Assembly: GCA_964399075.1 (NCBI GenBank)
Contig: CAYNPK010000001.1
Coordinates: forward strand, 55,457 to 119,456
Direction of reading: 5' to 3'
DNA: 64,000 nt
Source of the DNA: an uncultured Candidatus Saccharibacteria bacterium
GTDB lineage: Bacteria; Patescibacteriota; Minisyncoccia; Phycocordibacterales; JACOZG01
The notes beneath the pieces are model-generated. The model did not search any database. It saw only the letters and a list, made by a program, of their open reading frames with translations, and was not told the DNA's origin. Below are positions 23,279 to 55,230 of this stretch, piece by piece. Made by a program: the position numbers and the translations under genes. Position 1 is the stretch's first letter, and every line of letters starts with the position of its first letter.

Positions 23279-25363
23279 CTAAACCACAGATTTGTCAAGC
23301 GTTGGCCACTTGGCCACAAGCAACAATTCTGATTGATTTATTTTCTCCCAAATTGTCTCGGTGATGAAGGGCATCACGGGGTGGATAATCTTCAAAGTTC
23401 GCAATAACACTGTCGCTAAAATTTTACCAGTGTTTTCTTTTAATTTAGGATCTAATAATTGCTTCTTACTCTCTTCAATATATTTATCAGCCAAATCACG
23501 CCAAACGAAATCATATAAGAAGTGGGTAGCCTGACCAAAATTATAATTCTTAATCTGTGCCTCAACTTCAGTAACCGTCTTGTTAAGCGCCGAAATAATT
23601 AGCTTATCAGCATCAGTTAAGGCTGTGAGTTTAGTCTCTTCAATTTTAATTTCTCCACTTTTTTTATCATCAATAGCGCTAACAACATAACGAGAAATAT
23701 TCCAAAGCTTGTTGCAGAATTTTTTTCCAGTGATTAAAATATTTTCATTGAAACGCATTTCCTGACCTTCGAAAGATTGATACAACAAACCAAACCGCGT
23801 GGCATCGGCGCCGTATTTATTAATCATTTCCATTGGGTCAATACCGGTACCCAGAGACTTACTCATTCGCCGACCGTCTTTAGTTAAAATCGTGGCATGA
23901 ATTACCACATCAGAAAACGGTAACTTGTTGGTAAACTCCAGACCGGAAAAGAGCATCCTAGAAATCCAAAGGTGGATAATATCACGAGCTGAAGTGATTA
24001 CTTGCGTGGGGTAAAACTCTGACAAATCTTTAGTTTTCTTAGGCCAACCAAGAGTCGCCAGTGGCCACAGGGCTGAAGAAAACCAGGTATCAAAGGTGTC
24101 AGTGCTATCGGCGATAGGAATAGGGTGTCCCCACCAAATTTGACGCGAAATACACCAATCTCGAACATTCTCGAGCCAGTCAACGGCAACCTTGGTCCAG
24201 CGTTCCGGATAATAAGCTACTTCCCCATTTTTAATCGCTGTCAAAACTTTTTTGGCCAAGGGGGCCATCTTCAAGAACCACTGCTTAGACATCATTGGCT
24301 CCACCGTTGAGTTACAACGATAACACTTGGCTACATTATGAACAGCTTTTTCCTCTTTCTCAATTAGACCTTTCGCTCGTAATTTTTCAACAATTTTTGA
24401 CCTGGCTTCGGAAATTTTCAAGCCAGCAAATTTTCCAGCGATTGGTAAAAGTTTTCCATATTTATCAATAATTAACTCACCATCTAATTTATGGCGTTCC
24501 GCAATCTCGAAATCAACAATATCGTGATAAGGAGTGATCGTCATCACACCAGTGCCGAAATTCATATCAATTGCCTTGTCTTTAATTACAGTGGCGGTCA
24601 CTGGTCCATTGATCCATTCCAGACTAATTTTCTCTCCATGTTCATATTGTTGATAGCGAGTATCATCCGGGTGCATTACAACGTATTTATCACCAAATTT
24701 TGTCTCTGGTCGTGCGGTGGTGATGATAAAAGGTCCATATTTAAGATAATAAAAGATTCCTTCTTCTTCAACATACTCAAGCTCCAAATCAGAGAGGGCT
24801 GTCTGATCTTTAACACACCAATTGATCACTCGCTCACCGCGATAAATCAAACCCTGTTGGTGATAATTTTCAAAAGCTGTTTTAACCGCCTCTTGATAGT
24901 CTTTGTCCATAGTAAAACGAGTTCGAGACCAGTCGCAAGAACAACCGAGAGTTTTGAGTTGGTTTAAAATAATATCACCGTATTTATCTTTCCATTCCCA
25001 GATTTTTTCCAAAAACTTTTCTCGCCCCAAATCATGGCGACTAAGACCTTGTTTTTTTAAATCTTTTTCTACCACATTTTGCGTCGCAATCCCGGCGTGA
25101 TCAGTTCCGGGAAGCCAGAGGGTTTTGTAGCCTTTCATCCTATGGAATCTGATCAATACATCAGAAATAGTATTTTCCAACGCGTGTCCCATATGAAGAG
25201 AGCCAGTCACATTTGGTGGCGCAATGAGAATGGTATAAGGCTCCTTTCTGTCGCCGGGCAAATTATCCGGGTTAAACAAACCACTCTTTAGCCACTTATT
25301 ATAGATTTTCTCTTCAGTTTCTTTGGGATTATATTGCGCTGTTATTTGATCCATTTGAATCAT
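23279..25363 (-). CDS. valS: valine--tRNA ligase (short form, lacks C-terminal coiled-coil)
   Basis: PPNVTGSLHMGHALENT (HIGH) and KMSKSLGTGIDP (KMSKS); 694 aa. Confidence 0.85.
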   Translation of the reverse strand: MIQMDQITAQYNPKETEEKIYNKWLKSGLFNPDNLPGDRKEPYTILIAPPNVTGSLHMGHALENTISDVLIRFHRMKGYKTLWLPGTDHAGIATQNVVEKDLKKQGLSRHDLGREKFLEKIWEWKDKYGDIILNQLKTLGCSCDWSRTRFTMDKDYQEAVKTAFENYHQQGLIYRGERVINWCVKDQTALSDLELEYVEEEGIFYYLKYGPFIITTARPETKFGDKYVVMHPDDTRYQQYEHGEKISLEWINGPVTATVIKDKAIDMNFGTGVMTITPYHDIVDFEIAERHKLDGELIIDKYGKLLPIAGKFAGLKISEARSKIVEKLRAKGLIEKEEKAVHNVAKCYRCNSTVEPMMSKQWFLKMAPLAKKVLTAIKNGEVAYYPERWTKVAVDWLENVRDWCISRQIWWGHPIPIADSTDTFDTWFSSALWPLATLGWPKKTKDLSEFYPTQVITSARDIIHLWISRMLFSGLEFTNKLPFSDVVIHATILTKDGRRMSKSLGTGIDPMEMINKYGADATRFGLLYQSFEGQEMRFNENILITGKKFCNKLWNISRYVVSAIDDKKSGEIKIEETKLTALTDADKLIISALNKTVTEVEAQIKNYNFGQATHFLYDFVWRDLADKYIEESKKQLLDPKLKENTGKILATVLLRTLKIIHPVMPFITETIWEKINQSELLLVAKWPTLDKSVV

Positions 25364-26102
25364 TTTTTAATTCTACAATAAAAGTACTGCCTAAGTTTTT
25401 GCCATCGCTCTCGGCCCAAATTTTGCCATTATGCGCCTCGATAATTTGTTTCGATATATACAAACCTAAACCAGTACCAGGAGCATAAGATTGGCTAAAG
25501 TCTTTAGAGCGAGCAAATTTTTCAAAAATAGTTGGCATTGTTTCTGAAGAAATACCCATCCCGGTATCTTTAACAGTCAATCTAATACCAGTTTCTGTTC
25601 TCGACAAAGAAACTTCCGCCTTGCCTTTTTCGGTAAATTTTATAGCGTTATCAATTAAATTATTAACTACTTGAGCTAATTGATCAGAGTCGGCTAAGAT
25701 GCTGTAATTTTCGCCTGTAGCGATTTCTAAATCAAGATTTAATTCTTTTCTTTCGGCAAATGGTTTAAATTTATCAATAACTTGTTTAGTTAATATATCA
25801 AGATCCAGCTTCTCAAATTTATAATTTAATTTTCCCAGTTCGATTCTAGAAGCGTTTAAATAATTTTCAGTGATATCAATTAGTTGCTGACTGGATTGAT
25901 AAATTGCCTCAACGGCTGTCTGCGCTTCACTGTTTATTTTACCGAAGGATCCTTCTAAAATCATTGAGGAATAACCCTTGATTGTGGTAAGTGGTGTCCA
26001 CAATTGATGATAAAGGAGAGATAAGAAGTGAATCTTTTGCTGTTCTAGATCTTGAGTTTGCTCTTCTGATTTTTTTAAAGTGTTTATTTGTGTTATTTCC
26101 AT
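25329..26102 (-). CDS. cytoplasmic sensor histidine kinase (HisKA + HATPase_c), no TM
   Basis: H-box YHQLWTPLTTIKGY. N/G boxes NLIDNAIKFT, GTGLGLYISKQIIEAHNGKIW. 35-bp overlap with the valS start. Confidence 0.8.
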   Translation of the reverse strand: MEITQINTLKKSEEQTQDLEQQKIHFLSLLYHQLWTPLTTIKGYSSMILEGSFGKINSEAQTAVEAIYQSSQQLIDITENYLNASRIELGKLNYKFEKLDLDILTKQVIDKFKPFAERKELNLDLEIATGENYSILADSDQLAQVVNNLIDNAIKFTEKGKAEVSLSRTETGIRLTVKDTGMGISSETMPTIFEKFARSKDFSQSYAPGTGLGLYISKQIIEAHNGKIWAESDGKNLGSTFIVELKNDSNGSNNSAI

Positions 26103-37699: not shown

Positions 37700-39505
37700 T
37701 TATTTTAAAACAGCTTTAATACGACGAATACCGGCAGCAATCGCTTCTTCTTTAATAATCTTGAATTCACCTAATTCTCCCGTCCGAGACACATGCGGAC
37801 CGCCACAAAATTCTTTAGAATAAGCGGAGTCTAAGCTATCGCCAATATAATAAACCGACACTTGCTCACCGTATTTGTTGCCGAAAAACCGAAGCGCGTC
37901 AGTCTTCTCCGCATCAGCGCGATTCATGATTTGGCAATTGACTGGTAAATCTTGTTGGATAATATTATTCACTTCGGTTTCTACGGCTAACTTCTCTTCA
38001 GTTGTTAATTTATCTCCGTGAACGAAATCGAAGCGCAACCGCTCTGGAGTGATGTTACTCCCCTTCTGTTGCACTTGATCACCTAAAACATTTCTTAGAG
38101 CCTGATGCAAGAGATGAGTAGCGGTGTGATATCTAGTTTCTAGCTCACTAGTACCAGCCAAACCACCCTTAAACTTTTGACCGGCACCAGCTCGAGAGAG
38201 TTGCTGGTGTTTTTTCATTTCCTGATTAAATTCACTAACATCAACACCCAATCCTTTTTCATCAGCAAGCTCAATAGTCATCTCGAGAGGAAATCCATAG
38301 GTTTGAAAAAGATAAAATGCATCCGTACCAGAGATTACCTTGTTTCTCATTTTTACATTAAAATTATACATTCTACCAAACCACTTAATTCCTTCCCGCA
38401 AAGTCACTCGAAACTTTTCTTCCTCTAAACTAATTTCTTTTTTAATTTTTACCCATTCAGTCTTTAATTCCGGATAAACTTCTTGATATTTCTTAACAAT
38501 CACTTCCGCAATTTCAGTCAAAGCGCCGTTACCTAATCTTGAAGAATCAGCATAACGCACCGCGCGACGCATTAGACGACGCAAAATATAACCCCGATCA
38601 GTATTGGTTGGCAGAACACCATCCGCGATCATGAATACCGATGTCCGAATATGATCAGCAATAATTCTCGCTGATTTACTGTCTGAATTTTTAGCTAGAT
38701 TTTTAATTTTACTAATAATCTCATCGAAGAGATCAGTCTCGTAAATACTTCCTTTTTTCTGAATGACCATCAAGAGTCGTTCTAGCCCGGCGCCTGTATC
38801 CACATTGCGCTCCTTCAATTTTCCAATAACTTTGCCCTGATCTTTCTGAAATTCCATGAAAACATCATTCCAAACTTCAACGATTTTTTGCTCGTCTTCC
38901 GCTTTCTGTTCTTCTTCCGGAGTTAAATCACCCAAGCCCTTCGGAGTAATGTCATAAAACATTTCTGTACAAGGCCCCGTTGGACCAGACCAAGAATCAA
39001 CACCTTTTACCGCTGGCCACCAATTGGCATCCGCGCCCTTAAAATAAATTCGCTCTTTGGGCACGCCAACTTTCTGCCAAATTTCCGCCGACAAAGTATC
39101 CCGAGGCGAATTCTGATCACCGGCAAAAACGGTGACATAGAGTCGAGCTGGATCAAGCCCCAGTCCTTCTTCAGTGGAAGTTAAAAATGCATAACTCCAC
39201 TCAATCGCCTCTTGCTTAAAATAATCTCCTAGAGACCAATTACCCAGCATCTCAAAAAAAGTAGCATGAGTGTTATCACCAACATCCTCAATGTCAGTGG
39301 TGCGAACACATTTTTGGACATTGGCTAGGCGCTTGCCGGCAGGATGTTTCTCGCCCAGTAGATAAGACACTAGAGGTTGAACACCGGCGGAAATAAAGAG
39401 GGCCGAAGGATCATTCTCCGGCACGAGAGAAGCCGAAGGCAGGATAGCGTGTCCGCGCTGTTTGAAAAAAGCTAAGAATCGTCGGCGAATTTCTGTTGAT
39501 TTCAT
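37700..39505 (-). CDS. alaS: alanine--tRNA ligase (short form lacking C-Ala domain)
   Basis: True start MKSTEIRRRFLAFFKQRGH at 39505. Editing-domain HxxxH/CxxxH present (HTATHLLH, CGGPHV). About 600 aa. Confidence 0.85.
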   Translation of the reverse strand: MKSTEIRRRFLAFFKQRGHAILPSASLVPENDPSALFISAGVQPLVSYLLGEKHPAGKRLANVQKCVRTTDIEDVGDNTHATFFEMLGNWSLGDYFKQEAIEWSYAFLTSTEEGLGLDPARLYVTVFAGDQNSPRDTLSAEIWQKVGVPKERIYFKGADANWWPAVKGVDSWSGPTGPCTEMFYDITPKGLGDLTPEEEQKAEDEQKIVEVWNDVFMEFQKDQGKVIGKLKERNVDTGAGLERLLMVIQKKGSIYETDLFDEIISKIKNLAKNSDSKSARIIADHIRTSVFMIADGVLPTNTDRGYILRRLMRRAVRYADSSRLGNGALTEIAEVIVKKYQEVYPELKTEWVKIKKEISLEEEKFRVTLREGIKWFGRMYNFNVKMRNKVISGTDAFYLFQTYGFPLEMTIELADEKGLGVDVSEFNQEMKKHQQLSRAGAGQKFKGGLAGTSELETRYHTATHLLHQALRNVLGDQVQQKGSNITPERLRFDFVHGDKLTTEEKLAVETEVNNIIQQDLPVNCQIMNRADAEKTDALRFFGNKYGEQVSVYYIGDSLDSAYSKEFCGGPHVSRTGELGEFKIIKEEAIAAGIRRIKAVLK

Positions 39506-44006: not shown

Positions 44007-45080
44007 TTAAACCAGAGTATAACGCCCCTGTTTGTCTTGCTTGAAGTAACGACGATTCTTAATGTTAACCATAACGGTATTTTCTTTAACATAACGCTCT
44101 TTCATCACCTTGCTTAGAATTTCTTCTTTAGATAGAGGGCCATTATCTTTTATAATTTGACGAATGACATCTCTAACTACCCCTTTAATGTAACCCCACT
44201 CGCTAAGAGCATAGATACCGCGCCCAACTAGGATAAAGCGACCATCTTTAATTAATTCGTTATGACAAGTGGCAGAGTTAGCCTTGCGACCAAAGTTTTG
44301 CTGGATCGCCTTAGCAACTTCTGTAAAGTGCATTGGAGAACCATGCTTGCGCATAATTAAATAAGCATAATCACGAATGCCTCGAACATAAACATTGGGT
44401 GAGCTAGTTAATCCCCAATCACCGATTGGCGATTTTCCAATCTCCTTAGAGAGCATCAAATAACGTTTGGCGTGAGCCTTAGCTTGTTCCGGAGAAAGAG
44501 TTTCGTACAGATTTTTTAGAAAAGTATCAATAATCTCCTGTTCAGATAATAATTGATCTTCTGACAATTGAGTACACAAATTTTTAAGCGAGCCTCGAAC
44601 TCCTTCTGCCAATTCCGGATCAGTCGTCCAGTGGTGATAGAACGAATCTCCTTCTTTAACTTTAGAGAAGGCATCGCCTAACACTAGAAGAAAGTGAATA
44701 TTATTTTGGGTCATCCGTTCGCCAGATAGGTGGTTTAGAAATTCTTGCTCATGAACGATTCCGCCATATTGCTCCATCGCTGATTGCAATTCCGAAAAGA
44801 TTTCGGCTGACTCATTCATTACCGAAGAACGACGGATAGTCTTGAGACTAAAGTCTTCAATCTGGCGTACTCGTTCGCGGGTAATTTGATACTTTTTACC
44901 AATAGCCTCGAGGGTTAAACCTTTGTCGCTTTCTAAACCAAAGCGCATCTTTAAAATATCTTGCGCTCGCTCAGGCAAAACGGTTAACAAAGCACGGGTC
45001 ACCTTCTTTGGCTTAAATGTGAGAACTTCTTTGCTGATCATGATTAAATTTATTAAATCTATTCTTATAATTAAACTCAA
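44007..45080 (-). CDS. sigma-70 region-4-like HTH protein with C-terminal winged-helix (Mrr-N-like) domain; function unknown
   Basis: N-terminus LLTVLPERAQDILKMRFGLESDKGLTLEAIGKKYQITRERVRQIEDFSLKTIRR is a classic region 4.2. C-terminus ...GRGIYALSEWGY looks like a winged helix. Confidence 0.5.
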   Translation of the reverse strand: MSLIIRIDLINLIMISKEVLTFKPKKVTRALLTVLPERAQDILKMRFGLESDKGLTLEAIGKKYQITRERVRQIEDFSLKTIRRSSVMNESAEIFSELQSAMEQYGGIVHEQEFLNHLSGERMTQNNIHFLLVLGDAFSKVKEGDSFYHHWTTDPELAEGVRGSLKNLCTQLSEDQLLSEQEIIDTFLKNLYETLSPEQAKAHAKRYLMLSKEIGKSPIGDWGLTSSPNVYVRGIRDYAYLIMRKHGSPMHFTEVAKAIQQNFGRKANSATCHNELIKDGRFILVGRGIYALSEWGYIKGVVRDVIRQIIKDNGPLSKEEILSKVMKERYVKENTVMVNIKNRRYFKQDKQGRYTLV

Positions 45081-52118: not shown

Positions 52119-52151
52119 TAAAAAGGGCCGATGGAAATAAATCCACCGGCC
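52119..52151 (-). terminator. rho-independent terminator of the PEP-CTERM gene
   Basis: Minus strand: GGCCGGTGGA-loop7-TCCATCGGCC (one mismatch) then CTTTTTATT. Confidence 0.55.
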
Positions 52152-52181: not shown

Positions 52182-52775
52182 CTACTGTCGTCGTCTACGC
52201 ACCAGCCCCAGGAACCCGAAACTCATGAGACCAAGCGATGCAGGTTCAGGAATCGGAATGCCAGTGAGAATGAAGTCATCAAAGTGCATCCGATCGCCAC
52301 TACTGTCCATAACGGCCGTTAGTCGTAAGGTGAAATTGGAATTGTCATCCGAAGCGACAGGCAAGAGAAGCGTCTCAGGACGCCAAACTGTTTCGGCCTG
52401 CAGTCCTTCGTAAGCAACAAGCTGCTCCCAATCAATGTTGTTGTTGGAGATCTCAACGCGAATGATGTCTTCATCCAGCTCTATACTCTCCCTTACTTTA
52501 TACCAATACTTGAGGGAGATGTTATGATAGCCAGCTAAAGAGATTTGTCCCATCAACTCATCACCCTGTTCAAACCCAGCACTCCGGCCATAAATATCGG
52601 CACTGAATTGACCAGAATGTGCTGTTTCAGTAGTCGTTCTCCATAAGCCAAAATTTCCAGGGAACCAGTTAGAGAAATTCCCCGACTCGAAATCGTCACT
52701 CCAAATCACTGCCTGGGCCCATGTCGGAACGCAAACCAACAACAACACCGTCACTGCCACAAAAATCGTCTTCAT
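52182..52775 (-). CDS. PEP-CTERM sorting-domain secreted protein; high GC
   Basis: Signal peptide MKTIFVAVTVLLLVCVPTWAQA. C-terminus PEPASLGLMSFGFLGLVRRRRQ is PEP motif, hydrophobic helix, then Arg cluster. AGGAGA RBS. Confidence 0.6.
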   Translation of the reverse strand: MKTIFVAVTVLLLVCVPTWAQAVIWSDDFESGNFSNWFPGNFGLWRTTTETAHSGQFSADIYGRSAGFEQGDELMGQISLAGYHNISLKYWYKVRESIELDEDIIRVEISNNNIDWEQLVAYEGLQAETVWRPETLLLPVASDDNSNFTLRLTAVMDSSGDRMHFDDFILTGIPIPEPASLGLMSFGFLGLVRRRRQ

Positions 52776-52976: not shown

Positions 52977-53108
52977 CTAAGACAAGAGGCGGGCGATCAA
53001 TATAATAAGCGCAATAGCAAGCAAGGTGTGAATGAGATTACCTCCCACCTTGAAGCTAAAGCCAAGGAGCCAGAGCACGACTAAAATAATGATAATTGTC
53101 CAAAGCAT
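52977..53108 (-). CDS. lmo0937-family small membrane protein (43 aa)
   Basis: Below the ORF-track size cutoff. My translation is MLWTIIIILVVLWLLGFSFKVGGNLIHTLLAIALIILIARLLS. Confidence 0.55.
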   Translation of the reverse strand: MLWTIIIILVVLWLLGFSFKVGGNLIHTLLAIALIILIARLLS

Positions 53109-53110
53109 AT

Positions 53111-53629
53111 TTAAGTTTGATTATTGTATAATATCTTAAGCTTGATAAGACCCCGATGCGCTTGCACGGCAACAGTATTTCTCGATTGACCCGTAATGAG
53201 AGCTATCTCTTTAAGCGAGAGATCCTGCGCATACCTCATTCACATCACTTTCTCGTATTTTGCCGGAAGGTACTTGATTAAGAGTAAGGCCACCTTACCG
53301 TCAAAGATGTTGGAAACGCGTTCGGAATGATCGAAACTTGGCTGAAAACCTTTTTCAAGAAGGACATCAAGAGAAGATGTCTTGTGTTTACGATATTCAT
53401 CAATAATCAGGTGATTCAGAATGTGGTACAAAAACGGCTTCATCAGATCAATCTTTCCTCCCTTAACGAGATAATCCCAAGTTTTAATGAAGGTGTCTTG
53501 AACCAAATCTTGACCAGTTGCATGATTGTGTACCTTGAAAAAAGCATGCGAATTCATCATTTTCCCATAGTCATGGTGGGCTACGGTCAATATTCCCTCT
53601 CGTTCAATTTTCTGCTTCGGAGTCATCAT
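53111..53629 (-). pseudogene. ECF-type sigma-70 family factor interrupted by a single in-frame TGA (region 2 in 53240..53629; region 4 HTH in 53111..53239)
   Basis: Upstream ORF ends ...LLIKYLPAKYEKVM-TGA and the same frame continues MRYAQDLSLKEIALITGQSRNTVAVQAHRGLIKLKIL. Together these reconstitute the canonical region-4 sequence (LPxxYRxVxxLRYxxDLSxKEIAxxxGxSxxTV). Confidence 0.55.
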
Positions 53630-53852
53630 ATATTAAGCCGAGCACAGGGTCATTTCATTACACAGCTATTACATAGTCGTGGTAATACTTAGGATTATCT
53701 AGATTGTTGGAACCCACCTGATGACAAAAGTATTACGACAATATCCAGCCAATGAGGAAGTGCTTGGTCTCATGAGCATACCACATCGCGCATCTTATAG
53801 CTAGTTATAGTTAGTTTTGTAATAATATCGACTTTCTAACGGCGTTTGCTGT

Positions 53853-54419
53853 ATGGAAAAGAATAAAAAAGTTGCGAAGCAAACACGTGTCACGATCGGG
53901 GCTGATTTCGTGGATCATTTTTGGGAAAAGAGTTGGACATATATTAAAACAGTGGTCGATGTCGTGCGCGAACCAGTTCTAATCTTAGATAAAAGTTTTC
54001 GCGTGATGACGGCTAACGAGTCTTTCTATCGGGCATTCCAGGTCGATCCAAGAGATACTGAACAGAAAATTGTGTACGAATTGGGAAACGGTCAGTGGGA
54101 TATCCCCGCTTTACGAAAATTGCTCGAGGATATTTTACCTAAGAACACCTTCTTCAAAGGATTCGAAGTTGTTCATGAGTTTCCCTCAATTGGACGCAAG
54201 ACCATGATCTTAAATGCCCGCCAAATTCATGTTAAAGAGGATACGGCCTTTCCGCCAATTATCCTTCTGGCCATAGAAGATGTTACAGAGATGATGGATG
54301 TGGCCGAGATGCTTGCCCGTCACACAAAGCAGTTTGAGGTTAAGACAGGAGAACGTATAGAAAAACTTGATAGTCATATCAAGAAATTGGAAAAAGAACT
54401 AAGTAGTCTTAAAAAATAA
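53853..54419 (+). CDS. stand-alone PAS domain protein with C-terminal coiled coil
   Basis: PAS fold pattern (VVREPVLILDKSFRVMTANESFYRAFQV...). Divergent from the split sigma factor. Confidence 0.6.
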   Translation: MEKNKKVAKQTRVTIGADFVDHFWEKSWTYIKTVVDVVREPVLILDKSFRVMTANESFYRAFQVDPRDTEQKIVYELGNGQWDIPALRKLLEDILPKNTFFKGFEVVHEFPSIGRKTMILNARQIHVKEDTAFPPIILLAIEDVTEMMDVAEMLARHTKQFEVKTGERIEKLDSHIKKLEKELSSLKK

Positions 54420-54803: not shown

Positions 54804-54908
54804 ATCTACAACAGGTCACGGTGATAATTACTGTAATAATACTGAATTCAGGACGGCATCATTATAAGTAGAGATTAAGCATAAAGGTCGATTATGTAGA
54901 AACCTCAA

Positions 54909-54942: not shown

Positions 54943-55230
54943 ATGGATAAAATAATAAAGCGACAAAGAAACGCATTACGCATAGGACTCGTCGGGGGAA
55001 CGATGATAGCAGTAGTAATGCTTCTCGGTCTTCCAAGCCTGACCCAGGCTGCAACATACGGATATGTGAGCACCAATGGCTACGTGAGATCTGTTGTTGC
55101 AAACGGTTGGCAGGAGGCGATAAACACCGCTTCTTCCCAAATCAGTTACAACAGTGGCGTGATCTTGCTCCAAACAGCAAAAGATTTCGACATGGTTGGC
55201 AACTACGTGACGGGAGTAAACAACAACTAG
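54943..55230 (+). CDS. small secreted protein (about 60-aa mature peptide, Gly/Tyr/Asn/Val-rich; bacteriocin-like?)
   Basis: Signal peptide ...MLLGLPSLTQA then ATYGYVSTNGYVRSVVANGWQEAINTASSQISYNSGVILLQ... No family recognised. Confidence 0.45.
   Translation: MDKIIKRQRNALRIGLVGGTMIAVVMLLGLPSLTQAATYGYVSTNGYVRSVVANGWQEAINTASSQISYNSGVILLQTAKDFDMVGNYVTGVNNN

What the first reader, a model, noticed from the sequence alone, without database searches (positions are those of the whole stretch)
53111..53629. ECF sigma factor split by one in-frame TGA exactly at the region-4 boundary
Region 2 (…FIKTWDYL…FLYHILNHLIIDEYRK) is in the annotated ORF, which stops at TGA 53240-53242. The same frame continues without interruption into a perfect region-4.2 HTH (MRYAQDLSLKEIALITGQSRNTVAVQAHRGLIKLK) ending at 53111.

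The join LPAKYEKVM-*-MRYAQDLS matches the consensus spacing, so the TGA occupies a residue position.

Long core genes (leuS, dnaK, valS) show no internal TGA, so genome-wide UGA reassignment (code 4 or 25) is unlikely. That leaves three possibilities:
- a very recent pseudogenisation;
- a sequencing error;
- programmed read-through or regulated expression of a sigma factor.

The divergent PAS-domain gene 220 bp upstream may be its sensory partner.
Basis: seen in the sequence. Interest (0 to 1): 0.6.

Follow-up and report, generated by a model that had tools for sequence, protein, structure and literature searches.

The report
Fresh nonsense mutation in sigma factor
A single C-to-T change has turned an arginine codon into a stop codon inside a sigma factor gene that is intact in every relative examined, so this is most likely an ordinary, very recent gene-breaking mutation and not a programmed recoding signal.

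Summary
The sequence facts hold. On the minus strand a 129-aa ORF (53240-53629, sigma region 2) ends at TGA 53240-53242. The same frame runs on from ATG 53239 to TAA 53111-53113 and encodes an intact region-4.2 helix-turn-helix.

- **Position of the stop.** It is not at the region-4 boundary. It lies 14 residues inside the Pfam region-4 match, within the second helix of sigma-4.
- **Genetic code.** The window uses the standard code. Many genes end in TGA, and no other gene has an internal one.
- **Orthologues.** All about 200 orthologues inspected (Paceibacteria/Parcubacteria, CPR) are single proteins of about 170 aa. At this column, 52 of 74 are Arg, and four of the six closest use CGA. One C>T transition (CGA>TGA) therefore explains the stop.
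- **Reality of the allele.** The identical sequence occurs in two separately assembled sequencing runs.
- **Age.** There is no decay after the stop: pN is 0.064 downstream and 0.076 upstream. The lesion is either recent or tolerated.
- **Recoding.** No recoding-type RNA structure is present, and no relative shares the stop.

Side result: the sigma gene and its divergent PAS-domain neighbour form a conserved module. Both are preceded by the same promoter-like motif, TGTAAT-N16-CGGC.

Verdict: an ordinary nonsense allele, of low interest.

The parts
53240..53629 (-). Truncated sigma factor ORF of 129 aa. It holds sigma-2, the linker, and sigma-4 helix 1 plus most of helix 2.
   Evidence: Pfam Sigma70_r2 at aa 21-83; 86% identical to the full-length P0001.
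53240..53242 (-). In-frame TGA at codon 130. The orthologous codon is Arg, and CGA in four of the six closest relatives.
   Evidence: Column in 74 orthologous loci: R52 H6 K5 Q4 Y2 S2 T2. None has a stop.
53111..53239 (-). Same-frame continuation of 42 aa plus TAA. It encodes the end of helix 2 and the region-4.2 helix-turn-helix. Its ATG directly abuts the TGA.
   Evidence: Pfam Sigma70_r4_2, 32.1 bits. All nearly invariant family residues are kept. pN is 0.064 here against 0.076 for the N-terminal part.
53637..53662 (-). TGTAAT-N16-CGGC motif, 7 nt before the sigma ATG. Inferred to be the sigma's own ECF-type promoter, giving a leaderless or near-leaderless mRNA.
   Evidence: 3 copies in the window against 0.2 expected. 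The same motif precedes the sigma gene in 55 loci. 137 exact copies against 1.2 expected.
53775..53804 (-). Conserved sigma-70-like block, TAGCTA-N17-TATGCT with TG upstream (extended -10), about 150-175 nt upstream of the sigma start. Inferred housekeeping promoter.
   Evidence: Conserved columns 'T.GCTA-T ... TG.TAT..T' in the alignment of 38 orthologous intergenic regions. The simple consensus scan did not pick it up.
53818..53843 (+). Second TGTAAT-N16-CGGC motif, 9 nt before the ATG of the divergent PAS gene.
   Evidence: The same arrangement occurs in 44 loci, with a median distance of 9 nt.
53853..54419 (+). Divergent 188-aa PAS-domain protein, intact. It is a conserved neighbour and a putative co-regulated partner.
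   Evidence: PAS_4 scores 23.3 bits against a cut-off of 23.1. Present in 69 of 82 loci at 58-80% identity, mostly divergent and within 500 bp of the sigma gene.
54832..54857 (+). Third TGTAAT-N16-CGGC motif, 85 nt upstream of a small secreted-protein gene.
54943..55230 (+). 95-aa predicted secreted protein behind the third motif.
   Evidence: It belongs to a family of about 87-aa proteins that follow the motif in 7 loci.
52977..53108 (-). DUF5670 small membrane protein of 43 aa, immediately downstream of the sigma gene.
   Evidence: Pfam DUF5670, 56.6 bits. Directly downstream of the sigma gene in most of the 28 loci that have a hit.

Best explanation
The gene encodes an ECF-type (group 4) sigma-70 factor that is a conserved single-piece protein of about 170 aa throughout the Paceibacteria/Parcubacteria (CPR). 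In this one clone, a single C>T transition changed Arg codon 130 (CGA) to TGA.

The organism uses the standard code, so translation normally stops there. The product is a 129-aa protein that has sigma-2 but lacks the region-4.2 helix-turn-helix, which reads the -35 element. That is a null or strongly hypomorphic allele, in other words a fresh pseudogene.

The lesion is recent relative to the divergence from the nearest known relatives, because nothing else has decayed:
- the downstream 42 codons are intact;
- the three TGTAAT-N16-CGGC promoter-like motifs of the locus are intact;
- the PAS-domain partner gene is intact.

Shown: the stop, the standard code, the intact orthologues, the one-step mutational path, the same allele in two runs, and the lack of downstream decay. 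Inferred: loss of function, and the role of the motif as this sigma's promoter.
For: - The stop and the in-frame continuation are present.
- The fused sequence passes the NCBIfam sigma70-ECF model, 52.2 bits against a cut-off of 42.9. The Pfam r4_2 match spans the stop.
- There are 2448 homologues. Of the best 120, all but the window's own 129-aa product are one-piece proteins of 158-204 aa carrying a region-4 Pfam domain.
- None of 74 scorable orthologous loci has a stop at this column. CGN Arg occurs in 50, and CGA occurs in L003, L004, L005 and P0001, four of the six closest.
- TGA is used as a stop in 12 of 59 long ORFs. No other gene has a mid-gene TGA.
- Two separately assembled runs give contigs that are exact substrings of the window.
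- Against P0001, pN is 0.064 for the C-terminal part and 0.076 for the N-terminal part, with pS about 0.7.
- Motifs and neighbours are intact.
Against: - The complete lack of decay downstream of the stop is equally what continued selection on the C-terminal piece would produce.
- The TGA is directly followed by a conserved ATG (UGAAUG). That arrangement is favourable for termination-reinitiation (PMC6728339, PMC10666635).
- The column tolerates R, H, K, Q, Y, S and T. A Trp inserted by UGA read-through might therefore still give an active protein. Read-through was 2-4% in an E. coli reporter (PMC10570021).
- No intact allele of the same species was found for comparison. The best full-length hit is 86% identical, and the JGI metagenome scan was empty.
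- Reads were not inspected.
Confidence: 0.8

Rival explanations
1. The stop is tolerated because the sigma factor is still made. Either of two routes could do this. Low-level UGA read-through by Trp-tRNA at a substitution-tolerant column would give some full-length protein. Alternatively, termination-reinitiation at the abutting AUG would give two pieces (sigma-2 plus region 4.1, and the region-4.2 HTH) that reassemble on RNA polymerase.
For: - The downstream 42 codons show no relaxed constraint, and all nearly invariant residues are kept.
- The stop and start codons are adjacent, UGAAUG. Coupling by reinitiation needs such short distances (PMC10666635).
- The column is variable in orthologues, R/H/K/Q/Y/S/T.
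- UGA read-through of a few percent is documented in E. coli (PMC10570021).
- A natural two-polypeptide sigma exists, SigO-RsoA (PMC7826278).
Against: - The arrangement occurs in one clone only. Zero of 74 orthologous loci and none of the 119 other best hits share it.
- The break lies inside a helix of sigma-4, not between domains as in SigO-RsoA.
- The ATG after the stop is the ancestral Met131 codon, not a newly evolved start.
- A recent mutation explains the lack of decay without any extra assumption.
Confidence: 0.1
2. The TGA is a sequencing or assembly artefact, or a minority variant fixed in the consensus. The real gene would then carry CGA.
For: - It is a single-base difference from the codon of four of the six closest relatives.
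- Only one population has been sampled. The two run accessions are adjacent, so they are probably from one study.
- No reads could be examined.
Against: - Two per-run assemblies plus the deposited MAG give the same base. The 2.6 and 2.9 kb contigs are unbroken and exact substrings of the window.
- The site is not in a homopolymer or repeat.
- No other gene in the 64 kb looks broken.
Confidence: 0.07
3. This is programmed recoding. UGA would be decoded as selenocysteine, or as Gly or Trp through a reassigned code (tables 25 or 4), or by regulated read-through.
For: Some Patescibacteria (Gracilibacteria, Absconditabacteria) do read UGA as Gly. This rests on established knowledge and was not tested here.
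Against: - TGA terminates many conserved genes in the window and never interrupts one.
- The orthologous residue is Arg, not Cys, Gly or Trp.
- The 111 nt around the UGA fold no better than shuffles, z = -0.31.
- Rfam finds nothing there.
- No tRNA with a UCA anticodon is in the window.
- The stop is not conserved in any relative.
Confidence: 0.03

Closest known systems
ECF (group 4) sigma-70 factors, e.g. Bacillus subtilis SigW (PDB 5wuq) and the SigM and SigV subfamilies
   Same: - Two-domain sigma-2/sigma-4 architecture with no sigma-3.
- Passes TIGR02937.
- A profile of the family hits SigW, SigH, SigL and SigE structures.
- A bipartite motif with a fixed 16-nt spacer sits in front of its own gene, like an autoregulated ECF promoter.
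   Different: - It falls below the cut-off of every named subfamily.
- It is a CPR-specific lineage of unusually high conservation, 63-79% identity across species representatives.
- No recognisable membrane anti-sigma factor is present. Instead there is a divergent cytoplasmic PAS-domain neighbour.
- The inferred promoter, TGTAAT-N16-CGGC, lies 7-12 nt from the ATG, implying leaderless mRNAs.
- In this clone the gene carries a premature stop.
[quoted passage not shown]
   Same: Sigma-2-like and sigma-4-like parts are encoded as two adjacent polypeptides (PMC7826278, citing MacLellan et al. 2009).
   Different: - SigO-RsoA is split between the domains and is conserved as a split.
- Here the break is inside sigma-4 helix 2.
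- Here it is caused by a single nonsense codon and is found in one clone only.
Ordinary nonsense pseudogenes arising by CGA>TGA transition
   Same: - One-step C>T change from an Arg codon.
- Intact orthologues everywhere else.
- Standard genetic code.
   Different: No secondary decay is visible yet, so loss of function is inferred and not demonstrated.

Membership tests
ECF (group 4) sigma-70 factor, criteria of Casas-Pastor et al. 2021 (PMC7826278) | Sigma-2 domain (PF04542) present | tested here: met
   27.7 bits against a cut-off of 24, aa 21-83.
ECF (group 4) sigma-70 factor, criteria of Casas-Pastor et al. 2021 (PMC7826278) | Sigma-4 domain (PF04545 or PF08281) present | tested here: met
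   PF08281 scores 42.5 bits on the fused sequence, aa 116-164. The domain is interrupted by the TGA at codon 130.
ECF (group 4) sigma-70 factor, criteria of Casas-Pastor et al. 2021 (PMC7826278) | [quoted passage not shown] | tested here: met
   No PF04539 hit at E <= 1. The gap runs from aa 84 to aa 115, 32 aa. TIGR02937 sigma70-ECF scores 52.2 bits against a cut-off of 42.9.
ECF (group 4) sigma-70 factor | Cognate anti-sigma factor or other dedicated regulator encoded nearby | tested here: inconclusive
   No anti-sigma domain was found in the neighbours. The conserved neighbours are a PAS_4 protein (69 of 82 loci) and DUF5670 (28 of 82 loci). Their roles are unknown.
Two-subunit sigma factor (SigO-RsoA type) | [quoted passage not shown] | tested here: not met
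   The stop is 14 residues inside the r4_2 match and inside helix 123-133.
Two-subunit sigma factor (SigO-RsoA type) | Two-gene arrangement conserved among orthologues | tested here: not met
   Zero of 74 scorable orthologous loci, and none of the 119 other best protein hits, are split.
Two-subunit sigma factor (SigO-RsoA type) | Both polypeptides are made and jointly required for transcription | not testable with these tools
   This needs proteomics and in vitro transcription.
Alternative genetic code with UGA as sense (tables 4 and 25) | In-frame UGA at conserved Trp or Gly positions of core genes, and UGA not used as a terminator | tested here: not met
   There is no internal TGA in leuS, dnaK, valS, alaS or any other real gene. 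Twelve of 59 long ORFs end in TGA. The orthologous residue is Arg.
Selenoprotein | UGA aligned with Cys or Sec in homologues, plus a SECIS hairpin just downstream | tested here: not met
   Homologues have Arg. The fold around the UGA has z = -0.31. The sel genes could not be checked beyond the window.
Nonsense-mutation pseudogene | Stop reachable by one substitution from the orthologous codon, with orthologues intact | tested here: met
   CGA in L003, L004, L005 and P0001 against TGA here.
Nonsense-mutation pseudogene | Secondary decay: further stops, frameshifts, or raised dN downstream | tested here: not met
   There are no indels. pN is 0.064 for the C-terminal part and 0.076 for the N-terminal part. 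The lesion is therefore recent, or the piece is still under selection.

The most novel reading that the evidence does not exclude
The UGA is not a dead end. The sigma factor may remain functional in this lineage as a leaky or two-piece protein. One route is Trp read-through at a substitution-tolerant column. The other is termination-reinitiation at the abutting AUG, giving a natural intradomain-split ECF sigma (sigma-2 plus region 4.1, and the region-4.2 HTH). Because the gene appears to be positively autoregulated from a TGTAAT-N16-CGGC promoter, read-through efficiency could then set the activity of the regulon.
Probability: 0.08. Interest if true: 0.6.

Novelty: new member of a known kind. 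Interest (0 to 1): 0.18.

Why it matters
The stop codon itself matters little. It is a textbook CGA>TGA nonsense allele in one uncultured clone. It says nothing new about the genetic code or recoding in the CPR, and the check confirms that this Paceibacteria genome uses UGA as a stop.

The check is useful for annotation. The two ORFs should be flagged as one disrupted sigma factor gene, not as two genes.

The more useful by-product concerns the gene's family. It is a highly conserved CPR sigma factor with a conserved divergent PAS-domain neighbour and a sharply defined promoter-like motif, TGTAAT-N16-CGGC. This gives a testable small regulon in organisms whose transcriptional regulation is almost unstudied. 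A natural null allele of its sigma factor could serve as a comparison point if transcriptomes from this site exist.

Tried and rejected
- **Code reassignment:** rejected. I recomputed all ORFs with TGA read as sense. Only this gene gains a homologous extension.
- **Selenocysteine or a read-through-stimulating structure:** rejected. The fold of the 111 nt around the UGA is ordinary, and Rfam finds only four tRNAs in the window.
- **Genuine two-gene arrangement:** rejected by 74 orthologous loci and 119 protein hits.
- **General genome decay or poor assembly:** rejected. No other broken gene is visible.
- **Search for an intact allele of the same species:** nothing found. No protein above 86% identity exists in the 5.8-billion-sequence collection. 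An exact-pattern scan of the JGI metagenome contigs, with N at the mutated base, returned nothing.
- **Shine-Dalgarno test for the internal ATG:** uninformative. Gene starts in this window show less anti-SD complementarity than random positions.
- **Simple sigma-70 promoter and terminator scan:** nothing above the shuffle expectation.
- **Literature search for the two run accessions:** no result.
- **Literature search for CPR sigma factors:** nothing relevant.
- **Second copy of the sigma gene in the window:** none found.

Full report
**1. The observation**

Read on the minus strand, the region is ...AAA GTG ATG TGA ATG AGG TAT GCG.... A 129-aa ORF (53240-53629) ends with TGA at 53240-53242. 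The same frame continues from ATG 53239 through 42 codons to TAA 53111-53113.

The N-terminal piece matches Pfam Sigma70_r2 (27.7 bits). The C-terminal piece matches Sigma70_r4_2 (32.1 bits). With the stop replaced by X, the fused 172-aa sequence passes NCBIfam's sigma70-ECF superfamily model, 52.2 bits against a cut-off of 42.9. It stays below the cut-off of every named subfamily. The coordinates and the 'one gene interrupted by one stop' description are therefore correct.

One detail is wrong. The stop is not at the region-4 boundary.
- On the fused sequence, the r4_2 match spans aa 116-164 and so begins 14 residues before the stop.
- A profile of the family aligns to SigW (PDB 5wuq) straight through the position. 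The column corresponds to the second V of SigW '...KYRTVIVLKY...'.
- I modelled the 86%-identical, collinear orthologue P0001 with AlphaFold2. Overall pLDDT is only 61, but it is 78-88 in sigma-4. The helices are 111-118, 123-133, 139-146 and 150-170, so residue 130 is inside the second helix of sigma-4 (region 4.1).

The 42-aa piece is therefore the last turn of that helix plus the bare helix-turn-helix.

**2. Genetic code and genome quality**

The window has 41% GC. Among 59 stop-to-stop ORFs of at least 150 codons, 35 end in TAA, 12 in TAG and 12 in TGA.

I re-read every frame with TGA as sense. In real genes, TGA then appears only just upstream of the start or as the terminal codon, followed by a few codons before the next stop. 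The sigma gene is the only case with a TGA in mid-gene (codon 130 of 174) and homologous sequence on both sides.

The core genes are confirmed as:
- leuS, 978 aa;
- dnaK, 633 aa;
- valS, 694 aa;
- alaS, 601 aa.

None of about 60 genes looks broken. The four tRNAs in the window are Ala (three) and Val (one). None has a UCA anticodon. The organism uses the standard code, and the assembly is not generally degraded.

**3. Orthologues**

A search of 5.8 billion proteins gave 2448 hits at E <= 1e-5. Of the best 120, all but one are one-piece proteins of 158-204 aa carrying a region-4 Pfam domain. Where the source is named, they come from Patescibacteria: Zambryskibacteria, Harrisonbacteria and 'Patescibacteria group'. 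The exception is P0042, the window's own 129-aa product.

A scan of one genome per GTDB species found 319 relatives. The best 80 match as one uninterrupted segment at 63-79% identity. They include Zambryski-, Taylor-, Harrison-, Campbell-, Yonath-, Yanofsky-, Kaiser- and Nomurabacteria, and Paceibacterota.

At the column of the TGA, the 74 loci that could be scored have R52, H6, K5, Q4, Y2, S2 and T2. None has a stop.

The codon at that column in the six closest relatives is:

| Relative | Codon |
|---|---|
| L003 | CGA |
| L004 | CGA |
| L005 | CGA |
| P0001 (86% identical protein) | CGA |
| P0002 | CGT |
| P0004 | CGG |

L004 reads AAAGTGATGCGAATGAG, against AAAGTGATGTGAATGAG in the window. 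One C>T transition, the classic CGA>TGA nonsense route, is sufficient. The ATG after the stop is the ancestral Met131 codon (Met or Leu in all orthologues), not a newly created start.

**4. Is the base real?**

The truncated product is on record from the NCBI MAG (353-kb contig) and from two Logan per-run assemblies, SRR11845627 and SRR11845628. Both Logan contigs (2942 and 2598 bp) are exact substrings of the window, TGA included.

Two separate assemblies make a random consensus error unlikely. The adjacent accession numbers suggest one study and the same clonal population, so this is not independent evolutionary evidence. I could not inspect reads. No paper in the library mentions these runs.

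**5. How old is the lesion?**

Against P0001, synonymous sites are saturated (pS about 0.7). Non-synonymous divergence is 0.076 in the 129 codons before the stop and 0.064 in the 41 codons after it. Comparisons with five other relatives give the same picture.

With 94 non-synonymous sites and 6 differences, the excess attributable to neutral drift after the stop is at most about 0.05 substitutions per site. This is my estimate from a Poisson upper bound. That is a small fraction of the branch.

All nearly invariant residues of the C-terminal part are retained, and there are no indels. So either the mutation is recent, or the downstream piece is still selected. These data cannot separate the two.

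**6. Recoding signals**

- The 111 nt around the UGA fold no better than shuffles (-26.3 kcal/mol, z = -0.31).
- Rfam finds only the four tRNAs in the window.
- The orthologous residue is Arg, not Cys, Gly or Trp.
- The stop is shared by no relative.

Nothing here has the hallmarks of programmed recoding.

Two generic mechanisms could nevertheless leak some function.
- **Read-through.** UGA is read through by Trp-tRNA at about 2-4% in an E. coli reporter (PMC10570021). The column tolerates many residues, including Tyr.
- **Reinitiation.** The stop is directly followed by AUG. This zero-distance arrangement is the kind that supports termination-reinitiation (PMC6728339, PMC10666635).

A Shine-Dalgarno test was uninformative, because gene starts in this window show less anti-SD complementarity than random positions.

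The natural two-subunit sigma SigO-RsoA is split between the domains (PMC7826278). Here the break is inside a helix. I therefore rate a working two-piece sigma as unlikely.

**7. What the gene belongs to (beyond the finding)**

The divergent 188-aa gene (53853-54419) has a borderline PAS_4 hit, 23.3 bits against a cut-off of 23.1. It is present next to the sigma gene in 69 of 82 loci at 58-80% identity. In 59 orthologous loci it is divergent and within 500 bp. A DUF5670 43-aa membrane protein follows the sigma gene in many loci.

Aligning the intergenic regions exposed a bipartite motif, TGTAAT-N16-CGGC. The window has three copies against 0.2 expected, and 0 of 100 shuffles reached three. All lie within 1.2 kb:
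- 53637-53662 (minus strand), 7 nt before the sigma ATG;
- 53818-53843 (plus strand), 9 nt before the PAS ATG;
- 54832-54857 (plus strand), 85 nt before a 95-aa secreted protein.

Across the orthologous loci there are 137 exact N16 copies against 1.2 expected from base composition. With a slightly relaxed pattern, the spacer is 16 nt in 186 of 204 instances.

The genes behind the motif are:

| Gene behind the motif | Loci |
|---|---|
| The sigma gene itself | 55 |
| The PAS gene | 44 |
| A secreted protein of about 240 aa, annotated PG_binding_1 in L083/L084 | 36 |
| YggT | 10 |
| A small secreted protein | 7 |

For the sigma and PAS genes, the distance from the motif to the ATG peaks at 7-12 nt.

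A fixed-spacer bipartite element in front of the sigma's own gene is what an autoregulated ECF promoter looks like. Its closeness to the ATG implies leaderless or near-leaderless mRNAs. This is an inference, since no transcription start sites are available.

A conserved block further upstream (53775-53804) resembles an extended -10 sigma-70 promoter. The simple consensus scan did not flag it.

In this clone, all three motifs and the PAS gene are intact. That again fits a recent lesion.

**8. Verdict**

The finding is real, but its most attractive premise, a clean split at a domain boundary, is not. The evidence points to an ordinary, recent, lineage-specific nonsense mutation (CGA>TGA) in a conserved CPR ECF-type sigma factor, under the standard code.

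| Explanation | Confidence |
|---|---|
| Recent nonsense mutation (fresh pseudogene) | about 0.8 |
| Tolerated stop: leaky or two-piece sigma | about 0.1 |
| Sequencing or assembly artefact | about 0.07 |
| Programmed recoding | about 0.03 |

Interest in the stop itself is low. The conserved sigma/PAS module and its promoter-like motif are the more interesting by-product.

Noticed in passing
window 53637-53662 (-), 53818-53843 (+), 54832-54857 (+); also L003-L085 around the sigma gene: A bipartite motif, TGTAAT-N16-CGGC, precedes several genes across Paceibacteria: the sigma gene, the divergent PAS gene, a PG_binding secreted protein of about 240 aa, YggT and small secreted proteins. There are 137 exact copies against 1.2 expected. 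For the sigma and PAS genes it sits 7-12 nt from the ATG. It is probably the sigma's own promoter, with leaderless mRNAs.
   Followed up: partly
window 53663-53760 (-) and orthologous intergenic regions: Extra TGTAAT copies occur in the roughly 150-nt region upstream of the sigma gene. One copy sits 11 nt upstream of the -35-like copy. A second pair, TGTAAT-N6-GTAAT, lies about 80 nt further upstream and is degenerate in the window (CGTAATACTTTTGTCAT). Their function is unknown; they could be regulator sites or alternative promoters.
   Followed up: no
window 44007-45041 (-): A 344-aa protein has only a sigma-70 region-4-like segment at aa 12-75 plus an RNA polymerase delta-like segment at aa 224-291. 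It has no sigma-2, so it is not RpoD. It is a stand-alone sigma-4/delta-like protein of unknown role.
   Followed up: no
window 23279-25363 (-) and 37700-39505 (-): valS (694 aa) is short compared with the usual bacterial enzyme. alaS (601 aa) matches the short PRK01584 type. A 257-aa histidine-kinase core gene (25329-26102) overlaps the valS start by about 35 nt.
   Followed up: no
whole window (57 gene starts): The regions upstream of start codons pair less well with a generic anti-Shine-Dalgarno sequence than random positions do (median +0.3 against -2.3 kcal/mol). This suggests weak SD use in this organism. The caveats are that starts were taken as the first ATG and a generic anti-SD sequence was used.
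   Followed up: partly
window 52182-52775 (-), with a terminator-like hairpin at 52126-52151 (-): A 197-aa PEP-CTERM-tailed secreted protein lies downstream of the sigma-DUF5670 pair, followed by the only terminator-like hairpin of the region. Among the fetched loci, this gene is found only in this clone.
   Followed up: no
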